Below, piece after piece: positions 8 to 62,781 of a DNA stretch of 64,000 nucleotides (position 1 is the first letter of the stretch; the number at the start of each line of letters is the position of its first letter). The stretch is from Cyanidioschyzon merolae (Eukaryota). The notes under the pieces are model-generated. The model did no database searches. It saw only the letters and a list, made by a program, of their open reading frames with translations, and was not told the origin of the DNA. Both the position numbers and the translations under genes were made by a program. The stretch lies in assembly GCA_000091205.1 (NCBI GenBank), contig AP006488.2. One strand, written 5' to 3'.

Positions 8-850
8 AGTACGCTGTCTGCCGCTTGCACGAGCGCAACCTGTTCCATTCGATAAAATTCGTGGAACGCGATGGACTCCAGTGTGAAACAAATGCCAGAA
101 CGTAAAGTCAGATTGGAGAACAAGTCGAGAAATTTTGATCCGTCCTCGTTTGCTTCGTGGAAAGCGATGACGCGCGCTCCACCGGCATCGATCGCTGAAA
201 TGATTGCATGAACAGTCCAGGACTCTTTACCCGGCAAACAGAAGACACGAGAGCGTCTCATCGTATATCCCGTGAGAGGTATCATGCGGCTGTCGAATAC
301 CGTCACGTCGACAGCCACAAACAAATGAGGAGTTGTTTTCGTACAGTATCGATTATCTTGAGAGACGATGCCAGAGTGATTTCAACAAGAGCTTGCGACG
401 CAGTCACCCAGAAACAACGTCGAATGTGGCTCCTCGTCTATCCAGAAGCGCGAATCGCCGCACCCACGAGTTGCCGTGAAACACATAGATCGAAAACTTG
501 AAGTATGCTTGTTTCGAGCATGCCATTCGAAACGGCATGGAGGATCGTCGAGCCTTGATCAAGTGAACTTCACAATCATATCGGGTATGTTACGATCCAG
601 CGTTCACGATCGTCGCAAATGGTCTCGAATCCGGAGACGTAACGAATCCCAGCGACAAAGCGTCGAAGAAGCCAATACGAAAAAGCGACCTAACCTCCAT
701 ACACTACGTATGACGACTGTTGCTCTCACCAATGCACTGAAAAGGTCGAGCCTTTATATACGAAACAAAGTTCGAAAGAAAATCGCAACCCAGGAATCGT
801 CCATCGGTCAGTGCTCCCTTTCCATCGGACACGGGGAATGACTGACCGAA
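8..850 (+). repeat. Dispersed non-coding repeat family, copy A, near full length
   Basis: It aligns by eye with 39885-40700, 30100-30650, 44870-45560, 56900-57470 and 61400-62060. Shared blocks are agta(c/t)gctgtc...gtggaacgcgatg, gagaacaagtcgagaaatt, gagaggtatcatgc(g/t)gctg, gcgcgaatc(g/c)c...gttgcc(g/t)tga, gatatcgg and gcgtcgaagaagc. ORFs 208..501 and 476..841 inside it have no domain content. Confidence 0.6.
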
Positions 851-931
851 ATCCCGGTATCTCGAGCGCAACCGCTAGGATACCCCGGGGGTTTTCGTGG
901 CGGGACCAGTGGCGGCTCTGGATCGAAGCCG

Positions 932-1651
932 GTGGTATCCATGCTGGGAAACTCGGATACGCTGGAACCCGCACTTATCCTAACTTTCGAGCGGTTTGTC
1001 GCAGAAGTTGATCTGCTGGTGAAGAGCGAGGCTACGGTGCGTGTGGTAGCACGTCTGGGCCAAGTGTTGGCTGAACTCGGTCTCTTGGTACTAGAGTACC
1101 GACGGAAGCGGGTGTTGGCATATTTTAAGGGGCAACTTCCAAGCGACGTCTATATCGGGAGCTTGGTAGAGATTACTGGGCGCGTATACACCGTGTCTCG
1201 GAGGCGGCCTGGTGCCGAACACCAGCCGAATGGTGCAACTTTTCGGGGCGCTCGTGTGCCGGTATGGGTTTTCGACGAGCGCTTCGTCGGCCTTGGTGCA
1301 GGTCCTACGGGTACCTGGCTCTCAGACGGTGACGCGACCGACAGAAAGGGAGACGCTCCCACGAGCAAGGTCATTGTGGACGTGCTGACGTTGCGGACAA
1401 TGGCGGAGGGCTTCGATATCATGGCTTGGGAAGAGGTGCTTCGCGAACGCGAGTTCTATTTACGGGAGTATTTTGCGTGTCTGGCTGCTGCCGAAACACT
1501 CACGGATCAGACGGGAAAAGCGCCTCCGGTTCAGCAGCTCTATGAGGGAGCGGTCGCCGTTGAAGCCGCGCTGAGGACGGGTCCAGCAAAAGCCGCAGAC
1601 GGCACAGAGGAGGTCGCATGCAAGAGTCTCTCTCCAACAGCGAAGAACTAG
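932..1651 (+). CDS. Hypothetical protein (orphan ORF, 239 aa)
   Basis: Long ATG-initiated ORF with GC3-biased codons. I recognise no family motif. It abuts repeat copy A. Confidence 0.3.
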   Translation: MVSMLGNSDTLEPALILTFERFVAEVDLLVKSEATVRVVARLGQVLAELGLLVLEYRRKRVLAYFKGQLPSDVYIGSLVEITGRVYTVSRRRPGAEHQPNGATFRGARVPVWVFDERFVGLGAGPTGTWLSDGDATDRKGDAPTSKVIVDVLTLRTMAEGFDIMAWEEVLREREFYLREYFACLAAAETLTDQTGKAPPVQQLYEGAVAVEAALRTGPAKAADGTEEVACKSLSPTAKN

Positions 1652-2212
1652 AATGCACTTGGCAGCGTTGTATGCGGACGTCCATGTGGTGCATGAGGCC
1701 GACTGCGGTTCGCGTTGCTCCACGCGCACCTCGATGTGGAGCGAATGAAGCCTGTCGTTTGCTGCGCCCAATGCTGATCAACACACAGTGCGGGAAGCCA
1801 GCTGCAGTTCGTAGTACTCCACAAATCGCACGGGCATTGCCGTGATCAACTTGAGCATTCACCAGAGAGATGATGGAAACGCATCCATGTGGCATGGATG
1901 ACATGCAGCAGGGCTTGGAAAATTCCCCGCCAAACCGTACGCAGATCGTGGGTACTCGGCTATGTCGCTTGCGCAACCATACACGAAGCCACACATGTGC
2001 ACTCGGCGACATCCAAGATCACTGGTTCGTAAAAATACGAGCTGTGCTGTGCCATACCAGGGCAAGGACATTCCGCATCCTGCGAACGTCAGTCTAGCTT
2101 CCCGAAAAGCGCTGAGGCAGTCCCTGTAGTGCTCGTCAGGCACGAAGCAACCGTTGCGCAGCGCTTTGCGGGCACTAAACTCGCATCCAATCGTCGAAAC
2201 GCCTCCACGCTG

Positions 2213-60540: not shown

Positions 60541-60704
60541 GCAATTGCGAGTATGGCGTACAACGCAAGAACTGAATGCATGGAGTGAGCAGGGAAAAGC
60601 ACCTCAGATCCTGGACACAGTCTGCATAGGTTTATTTGGTTGGGATGCGAAGTGCTTTAGGCATTCGTATCCGGAGTTTACAATAAATTTATCTATGGAC
60701 GGGT

Positions 60705-61645
60705 CAGCATAGAACGGAAAAGGTTTTCCGATTCGTACGCACCTACCAAAGTTTAGGTTGTATCCGCGCTCATCAACACCAGAATTTGCGGGCTTTTTCT
60801 GCGACAGCTTCCTTTGCCGCTCGCTTATCTCCAGTTTAAAGCAAGGTAGTCTTATCTGTCGCCTAAGGCTCCAATGTCAGCAGTCGGAGGATATACCGAT
60901 GGCGCCAATAACGCCTAGCTTTCACTGCTTCCCGCAGTTGTGAACGCGTTGCATGTGTAGAAGGTAGCTGCGATCTAGACACTTTGCTCGCCGCTATCCT
61001 ATTCGCCTTTCGGGGAAACCTCGGTGCGCTCCGCAAAGCGATTACACGTGCCTGTGGTCGGTGTTGCTCACGAGTCTACAGCATGTTCTCCATCGAGCGC
61101 CGTACCATGGTGCATCGACGCTTGCTTCATTACTCGGTCCGTGCGCTTGACTGGCGAAGAAGGCTCTCTGCGGTGCTTGCCTCCTTGACAGCGTCCAGCG
61201 CGGTACCCGGACGGTCGTGGACTTGTTCTTGGCGATACCTCCCGCGCGTACGCGTTCCAGTGCATGGAAAAGGACACGCGTTTCCGTCCAATGGATAGCC
61301 TGTTGCACGCAATATGAACCCTGCTGAAACCATTACCCAAAGACAAGTCCAGGTAGTAGAACGAATCGGGGGAAATTGTCGCGTGTACGCTCCTGTAGTG
61401 CGAAGCGGTTGCGTATTGCCCGCTGTAAGCGAATCGCTGTGGTGACGGAGGCTCAAGACCCTTTACCACACAAATCATTGAACGTGGAGTCTCTGGGAGC
61501 ATATTCCATGAGAGGTAGCATGCTGCTGACGAATGCAGTTTCGTTGATAGCCGCATATAGAAGAGGAGGAGTCGTTCAAACGGAATCGAATCTTCGTGGT
61601 GACCATTTCATTCAAATTTCGACATGAAGATATCGAAAAGTCGTC
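60705..61645 (+). repeat. Right copy of the 941-bp direct repeat; continues into dispersed repeat copy E (to about 62060)
   Basis: See the left copy. Beyond 61645 the sequence diverges from the left copy, but it still resembles other family members (gaaatttgaagcatgcttgatttgagcatgctgcagg, gataactgttattttacggaccc vs copy C). Confidence 0.85.
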
Positions 61646-62781
61646 CAGCGACGACGTGGCGTTCTTTGCATTATCAGTCCAGCGGCATCAATTTTCTTGA
61701 ATGGAAAACTTGGGAAATTTGAAGCATGCTTGATTTGAGCATGCTGCAGGCAGGTAAACGAGAAGCATGGAGGCTTGTGTGTCCTTATTCCACGATGATA
61801 ACTGTTATTTTACGGACCCGTTCTCGATGACAAGGTGACTCGTTTTGATTCCAGTGAGGTACAGAATCCTCGAATCAAAGGCTAGAACGAGCCATACCGA
61901 CGAAACGAGCGAACATGTTAAGACGACAGATGAATCGGCGGGTCCTTTTTCATGCAATTGGAATGTCGAGGATGTGCATCGAAGAAAGGTCGGAAAAAAC
62001 GAAGGGCAGGAACGGAACAGGCAATGCAGTACTGAATGTACACCCGACACGGATGCAGCGTTTGTTTTTTATGTTCATTGCGTGCATAACGATACCCATA
62101 TACCATTGATTCCTTGCACGGTTTAGCAATTCTTGGAAAGCCGGATACTCCTATCCAGAGATTACAGTATCTTTGCAGAGCTTGCTAGCGCTCAGAACTC
62201 TGTTTCACAAGTCCGCTCTGCACCACGGCTATTTCAAGAAACGAGGCTGATGCTTAAATAGAGCACAAACGACTTCATGGCTGGGAAAGCACGCGTCCGA
62301 TAGCGTAAAGGCCGCTAAACGTAAATGAACTCCAGACTCCTCGATCTAGAACGCAGCCTTTTCCGGGTCTGAAAGCTCTGCCCCGCCTCAAGACCGCCGG
62401 ACGCACCGATGCTTCTTAGAGGTGATGGTGTGCGCTCCAGCGGAAAGCATGGAGTGGTTTCCCGACTGCTGCCCTCGTGCAATTGTCTACGGATTAGACC
62501 GCTTCCCAGGAGCATCATCAACTTTATATAAAGGCTTGGACGCTCTGGGAAACAGTCGAGGAGCAGCGCAAAGCTCCTTTTGCGAAGCATAACGACGAGG
62601 CCAATTTCCGACTGTATCGAACGACTTTAGCGGCGACAGCCTCGAAGCTCACTTAACTGATGCAAGTGAGCACTGCTTCATCAGAAAGCAACACGAGCTT
62701 GGTCAAGGCGATGCTCGGAGTCACGTTTCGTGAGAGCTAGCAATAAGGGTCTCACGCATAGCGCCGCGGAACGTTTTCGAG

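What the first reader, a model, noticed from the sequence alone, without database searches (positions are those of the whole stretch)
8..62060. Unclassified dispersed non-coding repeat family: at least 6 diverged copies, all in the same orientation
Segments at about 8-850, 30100-30650, 39885-40700, 44870-45560, 56900-57470 and 61400-62060 share a collinear series of sequence blocks. These include gtggaacgcgatg, gagaacaagtcgagaaatt, gagaggtatcatgctgctg...gaatgcagtttc(g/a)t(t/c)gat, gcgcgaatc.c....gttgccttga, gatatcggttatttta and gcgtcgaagaagc, at roughly 70-85% identity. Overlapping ORFs carry no protein-family signal, and there is no obvious tRNA A/B box. I cannot place the family in a known class (SINE, MITE, satellite-derived). 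All copies are on the + strand, which is unexpected for independent insertions (probability about 1/32 for six). That suggests either segmental propagation or orientation-biased integration. Copies sit in intergenic spacers next to TOM40, GAD/KUP, DnaJ/Rpt3 and RRP8, and around the GRP170 gene, where they may act as recombination substrates or regulatory modules.
Basis: seen in the sequence. Interest (0 to 1): 0.65.

Follow-up and report, generated by a model that had tools for sequence, protein, structure and literature searches.

The report
Decayed Tc1/mariner–Fanzor transposon copies

Summary
The repeat is real, but it is not an unclassifiable non-coding family. The window is Cyanidioschyzon merolae 10D, probably chromosome 6. 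It holds seven copies, not six. Six are about 1.37 kb (one is cut by the window start) and one is a 456-bp internally deleted copy. Together they cover 8.2 kb, 12.9% of the window.

The copies are 53–63% identical to each other and 69–77% identical to a 16-copy consensus. Read on the minus strand, that consensus has:
- 26-bp terminal inverted repeats with TA flanks;
- an uninterrupted 261-codon IS630/Tc1-type transposase fragment (HTH + DDE_3, ending just after the second catalytic Asp);
- in another frame, the last ~190 codons of a Fanzor1 (TnpB-like) gene.

An intact 3.6-kb relative on a metagenome contig (L008) has homologous TIRs, TA flanks, a 329-aa transposase and a 786-aa Fanzor1-like ORF. 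The family is therefore best explained as a ~2.1-kb internal-deletion, non-autonomous derivative of such an element. It amplified once long ago and has decayed neutrally since.

The shared orientation looks like chance: two other contigs carry copies in opposite orientation, and window copies are no closer to each other than to copies elsewhere. Copies E and F were partly homogenised over 945 bp (97.8% identity). This is a new member of a known kind, of moderate interest.

The parts
1..837 (-). Copy A. The window start cuts off its 3' (Fanzor-tail) part. It keeps the 5' TIR region and the transposase remnant.
   Evidence: nhmmer 691 bits. tblastn of the consensus transposase covers 58–750 at E 1.6e-46. 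There are 4 in-frame stops and 4 frameshifting indels.
10511..10966 (-). Copy G, a 456-bp internally deleted, MITE-like copy that keeps both TIRs. It lacks model positions ~390–1324. It starts 12 bp after the last base of the stop codon of the mitochondrial ribosomal-protein-L3-like gene.
   Evidence: nhmmer gives two collinear hits, at 164.5 and 47.9 bits. Both TIRs and a left-flank TA were read directly from the sequence.
29537..30926 (-). Copy B, full length, lying between the divergently transcribed GAD-like and KUP genes. The transposase remnant is at 30139–30792 and the Fanzor tail at 29575–30069.
   Evidence: tblastn gives E 1e-57 for the transposase part and 3e-41 for the tail. An intact external transposase (L012) hits at 7e-11. 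The ends were read, with TA on the left flank.
39341..40728 (-). Copy C, full length, with TA on both flanks (39339–39340 and 40729–40730). It lies between the DnaJ and Rpt3-like genes.
   Evidence: The flanks were read directly. nhmmer 1,225 bits. tblastn gives 8e-36 and 5e-31.
44221..45616 (-). Copy D, full length, upstream of the RRP8-like gene.
   Evidence: nhmmer 1,162 bits. tblastn gives 4e-43 and 8e-21.
56211..57597 (-). Copy E, full length, upstream of the GRP170-like gene. Positions 56219–57163 are 97.8% identical to copy F.
60696..62055 (-). Copy F, full length, downstream of the GRP170-like gene. Positions 60704–61648 are 97.8% identical to copy E. The remainder is only about 50% identical to E.
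   Evidence: Metagenome contigs L001 and L002 (99.3% identical to the window) break inside this repeat.

Best explanation
**What the copies are.** They are relics of one non-autonomous DNA transposon family of the IS630/Tc1/mariner (ITm) superfamily in Cyanidioschyzon merolae.

**The master element** was about 1,376 bp long, with this layout:
- TA target-site duplication and a 26-bp TIR (CACCCGTTTCAGATTAAAATGGAACA).
- A 79-nt leader.
- A transposase ORF truncated just after the second catalytic Asp. It keeps the HTH domains and the D…D residues, ends at the DNIAFHK motif, and has no catalytic Glu.
- Out of frame with that ORF, the last ~190 codons of a Fanzor1 (eukaryotic TnpB-like) gene, covering the Zn-ribbon/TNB domain and the RD-NAAxNI RuvC-III motif.
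- A short trailer and the other TIR.

**How it arose (inferred).** A ~2.1-kb internal deletion occurred in a ~3.6-kb composite transposon that carried a transposase gene followed by a Fanzor1 gene. An intact element of that type is seen on contig L008.

**How it spread (inferred).** A full-length partner supplied transposase in trans, and the element moved by cut-and-paste into TA sites. Insertions persisted only between genes in this intron-poor, gene-dense genome.

**What happened since (shown).** All copies are inactivated and have decayed at roughly equal, neutral rates. Nearby copies E and F later exchanged sequence, most likely by gene conversion. The shared orientation of the seven window copies is most likely chance.
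For: **Organism.** The GRP170-like protein is 100% identical to C. merolae 10D BAM79461.1, which sits on a 536,163-bp record. That length is chromosome 6 in Nozaki 2007.

**Coding remnants.**
- A 6-copy consensus already hits Pfam DDE_3 above its gathering score.
- A 16-copy consensus gives an uninterrupted 261-aa ORF. It hits DDE_3 at 1.2e-10 (41.8 bits, cut-off 28.6), with weak HTH_Tnp_Tc3_2 and HTH_33 hits. It hits the NCBIfam IS630-family transposase model at 1.6e-17.
- The downstream frame hits Pfam PF07282, the Cas12f1-like TNB domain (OrfB_Zn_ribbon), at 7.9e-7 (29.6 bits, cut-off 26.3).
- The same downstream frame aligns end to end with the C-termini of published Fanzor1 proteins: CRe-4 at 3e-8, CRe-1 at 7e-7 and CMe-1 at 2e-6 (sequences from the supplement of PMC3627910).
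- Intact external transposases hit individual window copies on the minus strand at E 1e-5 to 7e-11.

**Termini.** The consensus TIRs match at 21 of 26 positions. TA lies at the 5' flank in 6 of 13 copies and at the 3' flank in 7 of 11 copies. Copy C has TA on both flanks.

**Parent-type element, L008.**
- It has TA-flanked homologous TIRs that share the 15-mer ATTAAAATGGAACAC with the family.
- ORF1 is 329 aa, with DDE_3 at 4e-28 and an HTH_33 hit. It is 38% identical to the family's N-terminal consensus (2e-56).
- ORF2 is 786 aa. Its residues 559–766 are 42% identical to the family's tail (2e-31). It is related to Fanzor1 CMe-1 at 5e-5.

**Decay.**
- K2P distance to the consensus is 0.28–0.43, the transition/transversion ratio is about 1, and there is no RIP-like bias.
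- The phylogeny is star-like and conservation is flat along the element.
- Each window copy has 3–7 in-frame stops and 2–4 frameshifts in the transposase part.
- Mismatches show no three-base periodicity.
Against: - No full-length autonomous partner was found in the window. I could not search the rest of the C. merolae genome.
- The source organism of L008 is unknown. At 38–42% amino-acid identity it is a relative of the parent, not the parent itself.
- L008 ORF2 gets no Pfam hit on its own.
- The exact deletion junction is uncertain within about 25 codons. The same nucleotides read weakly as transposase (YSP…) in one frame and strongly as Fanzor (…QRAL…ARAAD…VIVGYG) in another.
- TIRs were not detectable in single copies or in the 6-copy consensus. 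They emerge only from the 16-copy consensus.
- Seven of seven copies in one orientation has a two-sided probability of about 1/64 and is not positively explained.
Confidence: 0.85

Rival explanations
1. The element is a chimera made by recombination or template switching between two separate elements, a Tc1/mariner transposon and an independent Fanzor1 element. On this reading it is not an internal deletion within one composite transposon.
For: C. merolae carries stand-alone Fanzor1 elements, and the window itself holds some (CMe-1A). Bao & Jurka describe chimeric Fanzor elements as common. The two parts of the family consensus are out of frame with each other.
Against: L008 shows both genes in the same order and orientation inside one TA-flanked pair of TIRs that are homologous to the family's TIRs. 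The family's tail is much closer to L008 ORF2 (42% identity, 2e-31) than to C. merolae's own CMe-1 Fanzor (25%, 2e-6).
Confidence: 0.08
2. The shared orientation reflects a real mechanism. Candidates are orientation-biased local hopping from one donor, or selection relative to replication or chromosome-arm direction, so the cluster would not be a set of independent random insertions.
For: Seven of seven copies lie in one orientation within 62 kb, a two-sided probability of about 0.016. Density is high, at one copy per 9 kb.
Against: Both contig sets that carry two copies have them in opposite orientation. Window copies are no more related to each other than to copies elsewhere. The orientation does not track the direction of neighbouring genes: the copies sit in divergent, convergent and tandem spacers.
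Confidence: 0.1
3. The copies are maintained non-coding functional modules, such as promoters, insulators or recombination hotspots. On this reading their similarity reflects selection or concerted evolution rather than shared transposon ancestry alone.
For: The copies fill whole intergenic spacers, including two divergent-promoter spacers (B and E). Their lengths are well conserved at 1,360–1,396 bp despite about 30% substitution. E and F show sequence homogenisation.
Against: - Conservation is uniform along the element, with a 30-bp-window maximum of 0.83 against a shuffle 95th percentile of 0.816.
- All copies are about equally far from the consensus.
- The best-conserved blocks are the former catalytic motifs of the transposase, not novel motifs.
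- Only one pair of copies is homogenised.
Confidence: 0.05

Closest known systems
Fanzor1-carrying Mariner/Tc1 transposons described by Bao & Jurka 2013 (PMC3627910). An example is PUl-1 of Pythium ultimum: 3,620 bp, 24-bp TIRs, TA TSD, Mariner transposase plus an 802-aa Fanzor1.
   Same: The inferred parent, and the intact relative L008 (~3.6 kb, 26-bp TIRs, TA flanks, 329-aa transposase plus 786-aa Fanzor1-like ORF), have the same architecture.
   Different: The window family is a 1.37-kb internal-deletion derivative. It lacks the catalytic Glu of the transposase and about three quarters of the Fanzor gene. It is in a red alga and is very old (about 27% diverged from its consensus). I did not compare sequences with PUl-1 itself.
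CMe-1A / TE-N2_CMe, the 'WSV486-like' interspersed repeat of C. merolae. Nozaki 2007 reports 253 copies of about 3.2 kb covering about 5% of the genome. Bao & Jurka 2013 report about 150 copies of a 3,169-bp consensus.
   Same: It is in the same genome, it is also old and dispersed, and it also carries Fanzor1 sequence. One copy lies in this window at about 6182–8313 on the minus strand.
   Different: - It is a different family. The Fanzor tails are only 25% identical.
- The family's nucleotide model finds no significant match in the window's CMe-1A copy.
- CMe-1A has no transposase, no TIRs and undetermined TSDs.
- The window family has TIRs, TA flanks and a transposase remnant.
IS630 / Tc1 (DD34E) transposases
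   Same: The HTH + DDE_3 domain order is shared. The NCBIfam IS630 model hits at 1.6e-17. In the intact relatives, 34 residues separate DNIAFHK from NPIE, as read from the L008/L012 ORFs. The TA target site is also shared.
   Different: The NCBIfam score of 63.9 bits is below that model's equivalog cut-off of 100. The family copies themselves lack the third catalytic residue.
MITEs (Stowaway-like, Tc1/mariner-derived)
   Same: Copy G (456 bp) keeps both TIRs and a left-flank TA and has no coding capacity.
   Different: It is a single deleted copy, not an amplified MITE family. The main family is 1.37 kb, which is too long for a MITE. P-MITE reported no MITEs in C. merolae.

Membership tests
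IS630/Tc1/mariner (ITm) DNA transposons | DDE/D transposase with N-terminal HTH domains | tested here: met
   The consensus ORF hits Pfam DDE_3 at 41.8 bits, above the 28.6 cut-off, and gives weak HTH_Tnp_Tc3_2 and HTH_33 hits. The NCBIfam IS630 model hits at 1.6e-17. blastp against the intact L008 transposase gives 2e-56.
IS630/Tc1/mariner (ITm) DNA transposons | Terminal inverted repeats | tested here: met
   The 16-copy consensus termini match at 21 of 26 positions and are homologous to the L008 TIRs. They were not detectable in single copies.
IS630/Tc1/mariner (ITm) DNA transposons | TA target-site duplication | tested here: met
   TA lies at the 5' flank in 6 of 13 copies and at the 3' flank in 7 of 11 copies. 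Copy C has TA on both flanks. L008 and L009 have TA on both flanks.
IS630/Tc1/mariner (ITm) DNA transposons | Complete catalytic triad (autonomous element) | tested here: not met
   Transposase homology in the consensus ends right after DNIAFHK, so the NPIE Glu region is missing. All window copies also carry stops and frameshifts. The family is therefore non-autonomous.
Fanzor1 / TnpB-like nuclease genes | C-terminal [TS][TS]-x-x-C4 zinc ribbon followed by the RD motif (OrfB_Zn_ribbon/TNB) | tested here: met
   The consensus reads …WEHLTTVKCHRCEG…RLCMKC…NRDFNAAINIL. PF07282 scores 29.6 bits, above the 26.3 cut-off. blastp against Fanzor1 CRe-4, CRe-1 and CMe-1 gives 3e-8 to 2e-6.
Fanzor1 / TnpB-like nuclease genes | Full RuvC-like domain, including the upstream catalytic Asp (GxDPG) | tested here: not met
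   Only the last ~190 codons are present. The part homologous to L008 ORF2 residues 1–558, which contains LDPGRVN, is absent.
CMe-1A / 'WSV486' repeat of C. merolae | Nucleotide or protein similarity to the CMe-1A consensus; no TIRs | tested here: not met
   Identity is 25% over the Fanzor tail only. The family's nucleotide model finds no significant match in the window's CMe-1A copy. The family has TIRs.
SINE / tRNA-derived retroposon | Pol III A/B boxes or a tRNA/7SL/5S-related head, and a 3' tail | tested here: not met
   There are no ARAGORN or Rfam hits in the window. The element instead has TIRs and transposase remnants.
Segmental duplication | Copies share flanking sequence and are closer to neighbours than to distant copies | tested here: not met
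   Similarity stops at the TIRs. Window–window identity is 0.568 against 0.563 for window–other. The exception is the E/F 945-bp tract, which lies inside the element and is read as gene conversion.

The most novel reading that the evidence does not exclude
This one decayed family may be a major, unannotated component of the C. merolae genome. If the density seen here (12.9% of the window, one copy per ~9 kb, about a quarter of the non-coding DNA) and on the metagenome contigs holds genome-wide, there would be several hundred to more than a thousand copies. That is 5–15% of the genome, far above the published '8 class II elements, 0.7% transposons, no MITEs'.

A bolder rider is that the deletion derivative kept the 3' end of the Fanzor gene because that region encodes the guide (omega) RNA. 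The element could then have used both transposase and Fanzor protein supplied in trans.
Probability: 0.3. Interest if true: 0.55.

Novelty: new member of a known kind. Interest (0 to 1): 0.35.

Why it matters
C. merolae is a reference 'minimal' eukaryotic genome. It is repeatedly cited as having only 26 retroelements and 8 DNA transposons (0.7% of the genome), plus one odd 'WSV486' repeat, and no MITEs.

- **Missed transposon content.** This window shows that much of its intergenic DNA is very old transposon debris that similarity searches with single copies miss. A Tc1/mariner–Fanzor1 deletion derivative makes up 13% of the window. Three further Fanzor1 relics are also present.
- **A link to Nozaki 2007.** The family gives a plausible identity for the eight 'transposase-related elements closest to bacterial transposons' in that paper, since IS630-like hits at weak E-values are what single decayed copies would give. 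This link is my inference and was not tested.
- **A second Fanzor1 lineage.** The family documents a Fanzor1 lineage in this alga distinct from CMe-1A, this one tied to a classifiable transposon.
- **Little length loss.** The copies keep their length (1,360–1,396 bp) after about 30% substitution. That hints at an unusually low indel or deletion rate in a genome usually described as reduced.
- **Practical uses.** The consensus is a ready repeat-masking library entry. The near-identical E/F pair flanking GRP170 is a caution for homologous-recombination targeting at that locus.

Tried and rejected
- **SIDER-like retroposons in a trypanosomatid** was my first idea. I rejected it because genes lie on both strands and the organism is C. 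merolae.
- **A diverged protein-coding gene family.** Rejected: tblastx hits appear in all six frames, mismatches show no three-base periodicity, and every copy is full of stops.
- **RIP or another directional mutation process.** Rejected: C>T is about equal to T>C, and the transition/transversion ratio is about 1.
- **Solo LTRs.** Rejected: there are no TG…CA ends, and TIRs are present instead.
- **Early TIR search.** A search on single copies and on the 6-copy consensus found nothing above shuffled controls. It succeeded only with 16 copies.
- **Pfam on ORFs from individual copies and on P0018/P0019.** No hits.
- **PDB sequence search with the consensus.** No hits.
The single-consensus query worked.
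- **TIR search in the intact relatives with the repeat finder** was uninformative. The L008 TIRs were found by aligning its two ends.
- **Exact-protein look-ups of the GRP170-like protein** found no NCBI locus.
- **Folding the 3' 256 nt of L008 as RNA** gave z = −0.93, so it gives no support for a structured omega RNA.
- **The Matsuzaki 2004 genome paper** is not in the held library.
- **The PWM repeat families of Rudenko & Korotkov 2024** could not be matched to this family from the text alone.

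
Full report

Yes. BLASTN of the six listed intervals against the window gives collinear, same-strand matches. Examples are A–C at 65.9% over 722 bp (E 5e-39) and C–D at 67% over 530 bp (E 1e-33). 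A self-comparison of the window confirms this.

It has lost the middle of the element.

The final coordinates are below.

| Copy | Coordinates | Note |
|---|---|---|
| A | 1–837 | cut by the window start |
| G | 10511–10966 | internally deleted |
| B | 29537–30926 | full length |
| C | 39341–40728 | full length |
| D | 44221–45616 | full length |
| E | 56211–57597 | full length |
| F | 60696–62055 | full length |

Together they cover 8.2 kb, which is 12.9% of the window.

The exception is E/F, which share 945 bp at 97.8% identity. All seven copies have the same relative orientation and lie between genes.

**2. Where the window comes from**

Pfam on the long ORFs shows a gene-dense, intron-poor eukaryote with genes on both strands. 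The GRP170-like protein (57757–60540) is 100% identical to C. merolae 10D BAM79461.1 / XP_005535747.1, which sits on a 536,163-bp record. That is the length of chromosome 6 in Nozaki et al. 2007.

The published picture of this genome is as follows:
- 26 class I and 8 class II elements, together 0.7% of the genome. The eight transposase-related elements resemble bacterial transposases only weakly (E 0.071 to 6e-7).
- 253 copies of a ~3.2-kb repeat with a truncated ORF resembling WSSV WSV486, about 5% of the genome.
- Bao & Jurka 2013 showed that this repeat is a Fanzor1 element, CMe-1A. Its consensus is 3,169 bp, with about 150 copies, no TIRs and unknown class.
- P-MITE found no MITEs in the genome.

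**3. What the repeat is**

*Single copies look non-coding.* tblastx hits fall in all six frames. Mismatches show no codon periodicity. ORFs taken from single copies give no Pfam hit.

*The consensus restores coding sequence.* The majority consensus of the six copies, read on the minus strand, restores a long ORF that hits Pfam DDE_3 above its gathering score. It also hits the NCBIfam IS630-family transposase model at 1.3e-15.

*Related sequences from elsewhere.* Searching metagenome contigs with the consensus protein returned two kinds of locus:
- About ten further distinct decayed copies on contigs of 52–55% GC. I take these to be Cyanidioschyzon-like, which I did not verify. All end at the same model positions.
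- Intact 318–345-aa transposases at 34–38% identity to the consensus (blastp 1.5e-50). They carry HTH_33 + DDE_3.

The intact proteins hit window copies A–E directly on the minus strand at E 1e-5 to 7e-11.

*The 16-copy consensus* is 1,376 nt between its termini. It gives:
- An uninterrupted 261-codon ORF, MYSLDIRS…FIMDNIAFHK…. It hits DDE_3 at 1.2e-10 and the IS630 model at 1.6e-17, with weak HTH_Tnp_Tc3_2 and HTH_33 hits.
- In another frame, …VIVGYGTGRGNGG…VVDMWEHLTTVKCHRCEG…RLCMKC…NRDFNAAINILRLL…. This hits Pfam PF07282 (Cas12f1-like TNB / OrfB_Zn_ribbon) above its gathering score. It aligns to the C-terminal ~150–190 residues of published Fanzor1 proteins: CRe-4 at 3e-8, CRe-1 at 7e-7 and CMe-1 at 2e-6.
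- Termini TA|CACCCGTTTCAGATTAAAATGGAACA … TGTTCCATTCTATTCTGGCATGGGTG|TA. This is a 26-bp TIR with 21 matching positions. By my own binomial arithmetic the chance of that is about 4e-9.

*TA flanks.* TA lies at the 5' flank in 6 of 13 copies and at the 3' flank in 7 of 11 copies. Copy C has TA on both sides.

**4. Origin of the 1.37-kb unit**

Contig L008 (and L009, the same element at another site) carries a complete relative:
- It is TA-flanked, with TIRs CAACCGTGAAAATTAAAATGGAACAC / …GTTCCATTTCTACTTTCTCTGGTG. These share a 15-mer with the family TIR.
- ORF1 is a 329-aa transposase, with DDE_3 at 4e-28 and an HTH_33 hit.
- Directly downstream, in the same orientation, is a 786-aa ORF related to Fanzor1 CMe-1 over residues 378–776 at 5e-5.

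The family's N-terminal consensus aligns to ORF1 at 38% identity (2e-56). Its tail aligns to ORF2 residues 559–766 at 42% identity (2e-31).

Transposase homology stops right after the DNIAFHK motif. Fanzor homology starts at about ORF2 residue 558. The simplest reading is therefore a ~2.1-kb internal deletion of a ~3.6-kb transposase + Fanzor1 transposon. This removed the catalytic Glu region and most of the Fanzor gene and left a non-autonomous element.

This architecture is the one Bao & Jurka described for Fanzor1-bearing Mariner elements such as PUl-1 (3,620 bp, 24-bp TIRs, TA TSD).

The deletion origin and mobilisation in trans are inferences. The domain content, TIRs, TA flanks and homology to L008 are shown.

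**5. History of the copies**

- Every copy is 69–77% identical to the consensus, with K2P 0.28–0.43, a transition/transversion ratio near 1 and symmetric C>T and T>C counts. There is no RIP signature.
- The distance matrix is star-like. Mean identity is 0.568 for window–window pairs, 0.563 for window–other and 0.570 for other–other. The window copies are therefore independent descendants of one old burst, not local segmental duplicates.
- Conservation is flat along the element.
- Each window copy carries 3–7 in-frame stops and 2–4 frameshifts in the transposase part, and more in the Fanzor tail.
- Lengths are well preserved, with few indels.

**6. Orientation**

Seven of seven copies in one orientation has a two-sided probability of about 1/64. 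However, both contig sets that hold two copies (L013/L014 and L016/L031) have them in opposite orientation.

The window copies sit in divergent, convergent and tandem spacers, with no consistent relation to gene direction. I treat the run as chance, with a small residual probability that a real bias exists.

**7. Copies E and F**

The 945-bp near-identical tract starts 8 bp inside the element's end and stops in the middle of the element. The remaining ~440 bp of E and F are each ordinary family members that are only about 50% identical to each other. Gene conversion between two pre-existing copies 4.5 kb apart is the most economical explanation.

Environmental contigs that are 99.3% identical to the window break inside this repeat, so the repeat appears to be present in those populations too.

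**8. Relation to known C. merolae repeats**

The family is not CMe-1A. The Fanzor tails are only 25% identical. The family's nucleotide model finds no significant match in the window's CMe-1A copy. CMe-1A also lacks TIRs and a transposase.

The window separately contains three Fanzor1 relics:
- a CMe-1A copy at about 6182–8313 on the minus strand, 54–58% amino-acid identity to CMe-1;
- a more divergent Fanzor1-like relic at 47609–49003 on the plus strand (26% identity, 1e-26);
- a tail fragment at 52628–52831.

I found no paper in the held library that links C. merolae to Tc1/mariner elements. Repbase and Dfam could not be consulted, so the family may already have an entry there.

**9. Verdict**

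The 'unclassified, non-coding' interpretation is replaced by an ancient non-autonomous Tc1/mariner-type family carrying a Fanzor1 tail.

It is a new member of a known kind. The interest is moderate, and it lies mainly in how much of this supposedly transposon-poor genome such relics may occupy.

Noticed in passing
window 6182-8313 (minus strand; the element probably spans ~5.9-8.8 kb): This is a copy of the known C. merolae Fanzor1 element CMe-1A, the 'WSV486-like' repeat. tblastn with the published CMe-1 protein gives 54–58% identity over residues 12–721 in two frames, so there is at least one frameshift. The ORF at 5912–6412 contains the RDFHAAINM motif.
   Followed up: partly
window 47609-49003 (plus strand): A second, much more divergent Fanzor1-like relic (26% identity to CMe-1 residues 217–699, E 1e-26). 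It lies in a 4.5-kb stretch (45.6–50 kb) with no other recognisable gene. It belongs neither to the CMe-1A lineage nor to the lineage of the 1.37-kb family's tail.
   Followed up: partly
window 52628-52831 (plus) and 6183-6401 (minus): A short Fanzor C-terminal fragment (48.5% identity to CMe-1 residues 656–723) lies on the plus strand. It is 66% identical at the DNA level, in inverted orientation, to the tail of the CMe-1A copy at about 6.2 kb.
   Followed up: partly
window 30919-31214: A tandem array of about 49 copies of the hexamer TGATGG (81% matches). It abuts the 5' end of copy B and ends about 50 bp upstream of the KUP potassium-transporter start codon.
   Followed up: no
window 27545-29315 (minus strand): The glutamate-decarboxylase-like gene is split into two ORFs (27545–28507 and 28617–29315) that hit consecutive parts of the Pyridoxal_deC profile, with a 109-bp gap between them. 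It is either one of the very few intron-containing genes of C. merolae or a frameshifted pseudogene.
   Followed up: no
window 14129-14298, 3463-3492, 19813-19864, 21416-21444: Related CTG/GCT/AGC trinucleotide runs, and a 74-bp unit repeated 2.3 times. They match each other on both strands, and some lie inside ORFs (for example the condensin Cnd2-like gene).
   Followed up: no
L001, L002 (JGI metagenome contigs) vs window 57130-60826: Environmental contigs 99.3% identical to the GRP170-like locus end inside the E/F repeat on both sides. This suggests that assemblies of natural Cyanidioschyzon populations fragment at these transposon relics.
   Followed up: partly
family consensus, nt 316-1341: The frame that carries the Fanzor tail is open for 342 codons in the consensus. 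It overlaps the transposase frame by about 550 nt. This may be chance in GC-rich sequence, and I did not examine it further.
   Followed up: no
L009 1-24 and the region just 3' of the element: The L009 insertion of the intact transposase + Fanzor1 element is flanked by a 23-nt inverted repeat of host sequence (GACGGTCTTCAGGTGGCCGTTCT, 21 of 23 positions matching). It seems to have inserted into a palindromic or repeated target.
   Followed up: no
window 54378-55793 (minus), 941-1651 (plus), 4722-5501 (plus), 14154-14840 (minus): ORFs of 228–471 aa with no Pfam match. It is unknown whether they are lineage-specific genes or further relics.
   Followed up: no
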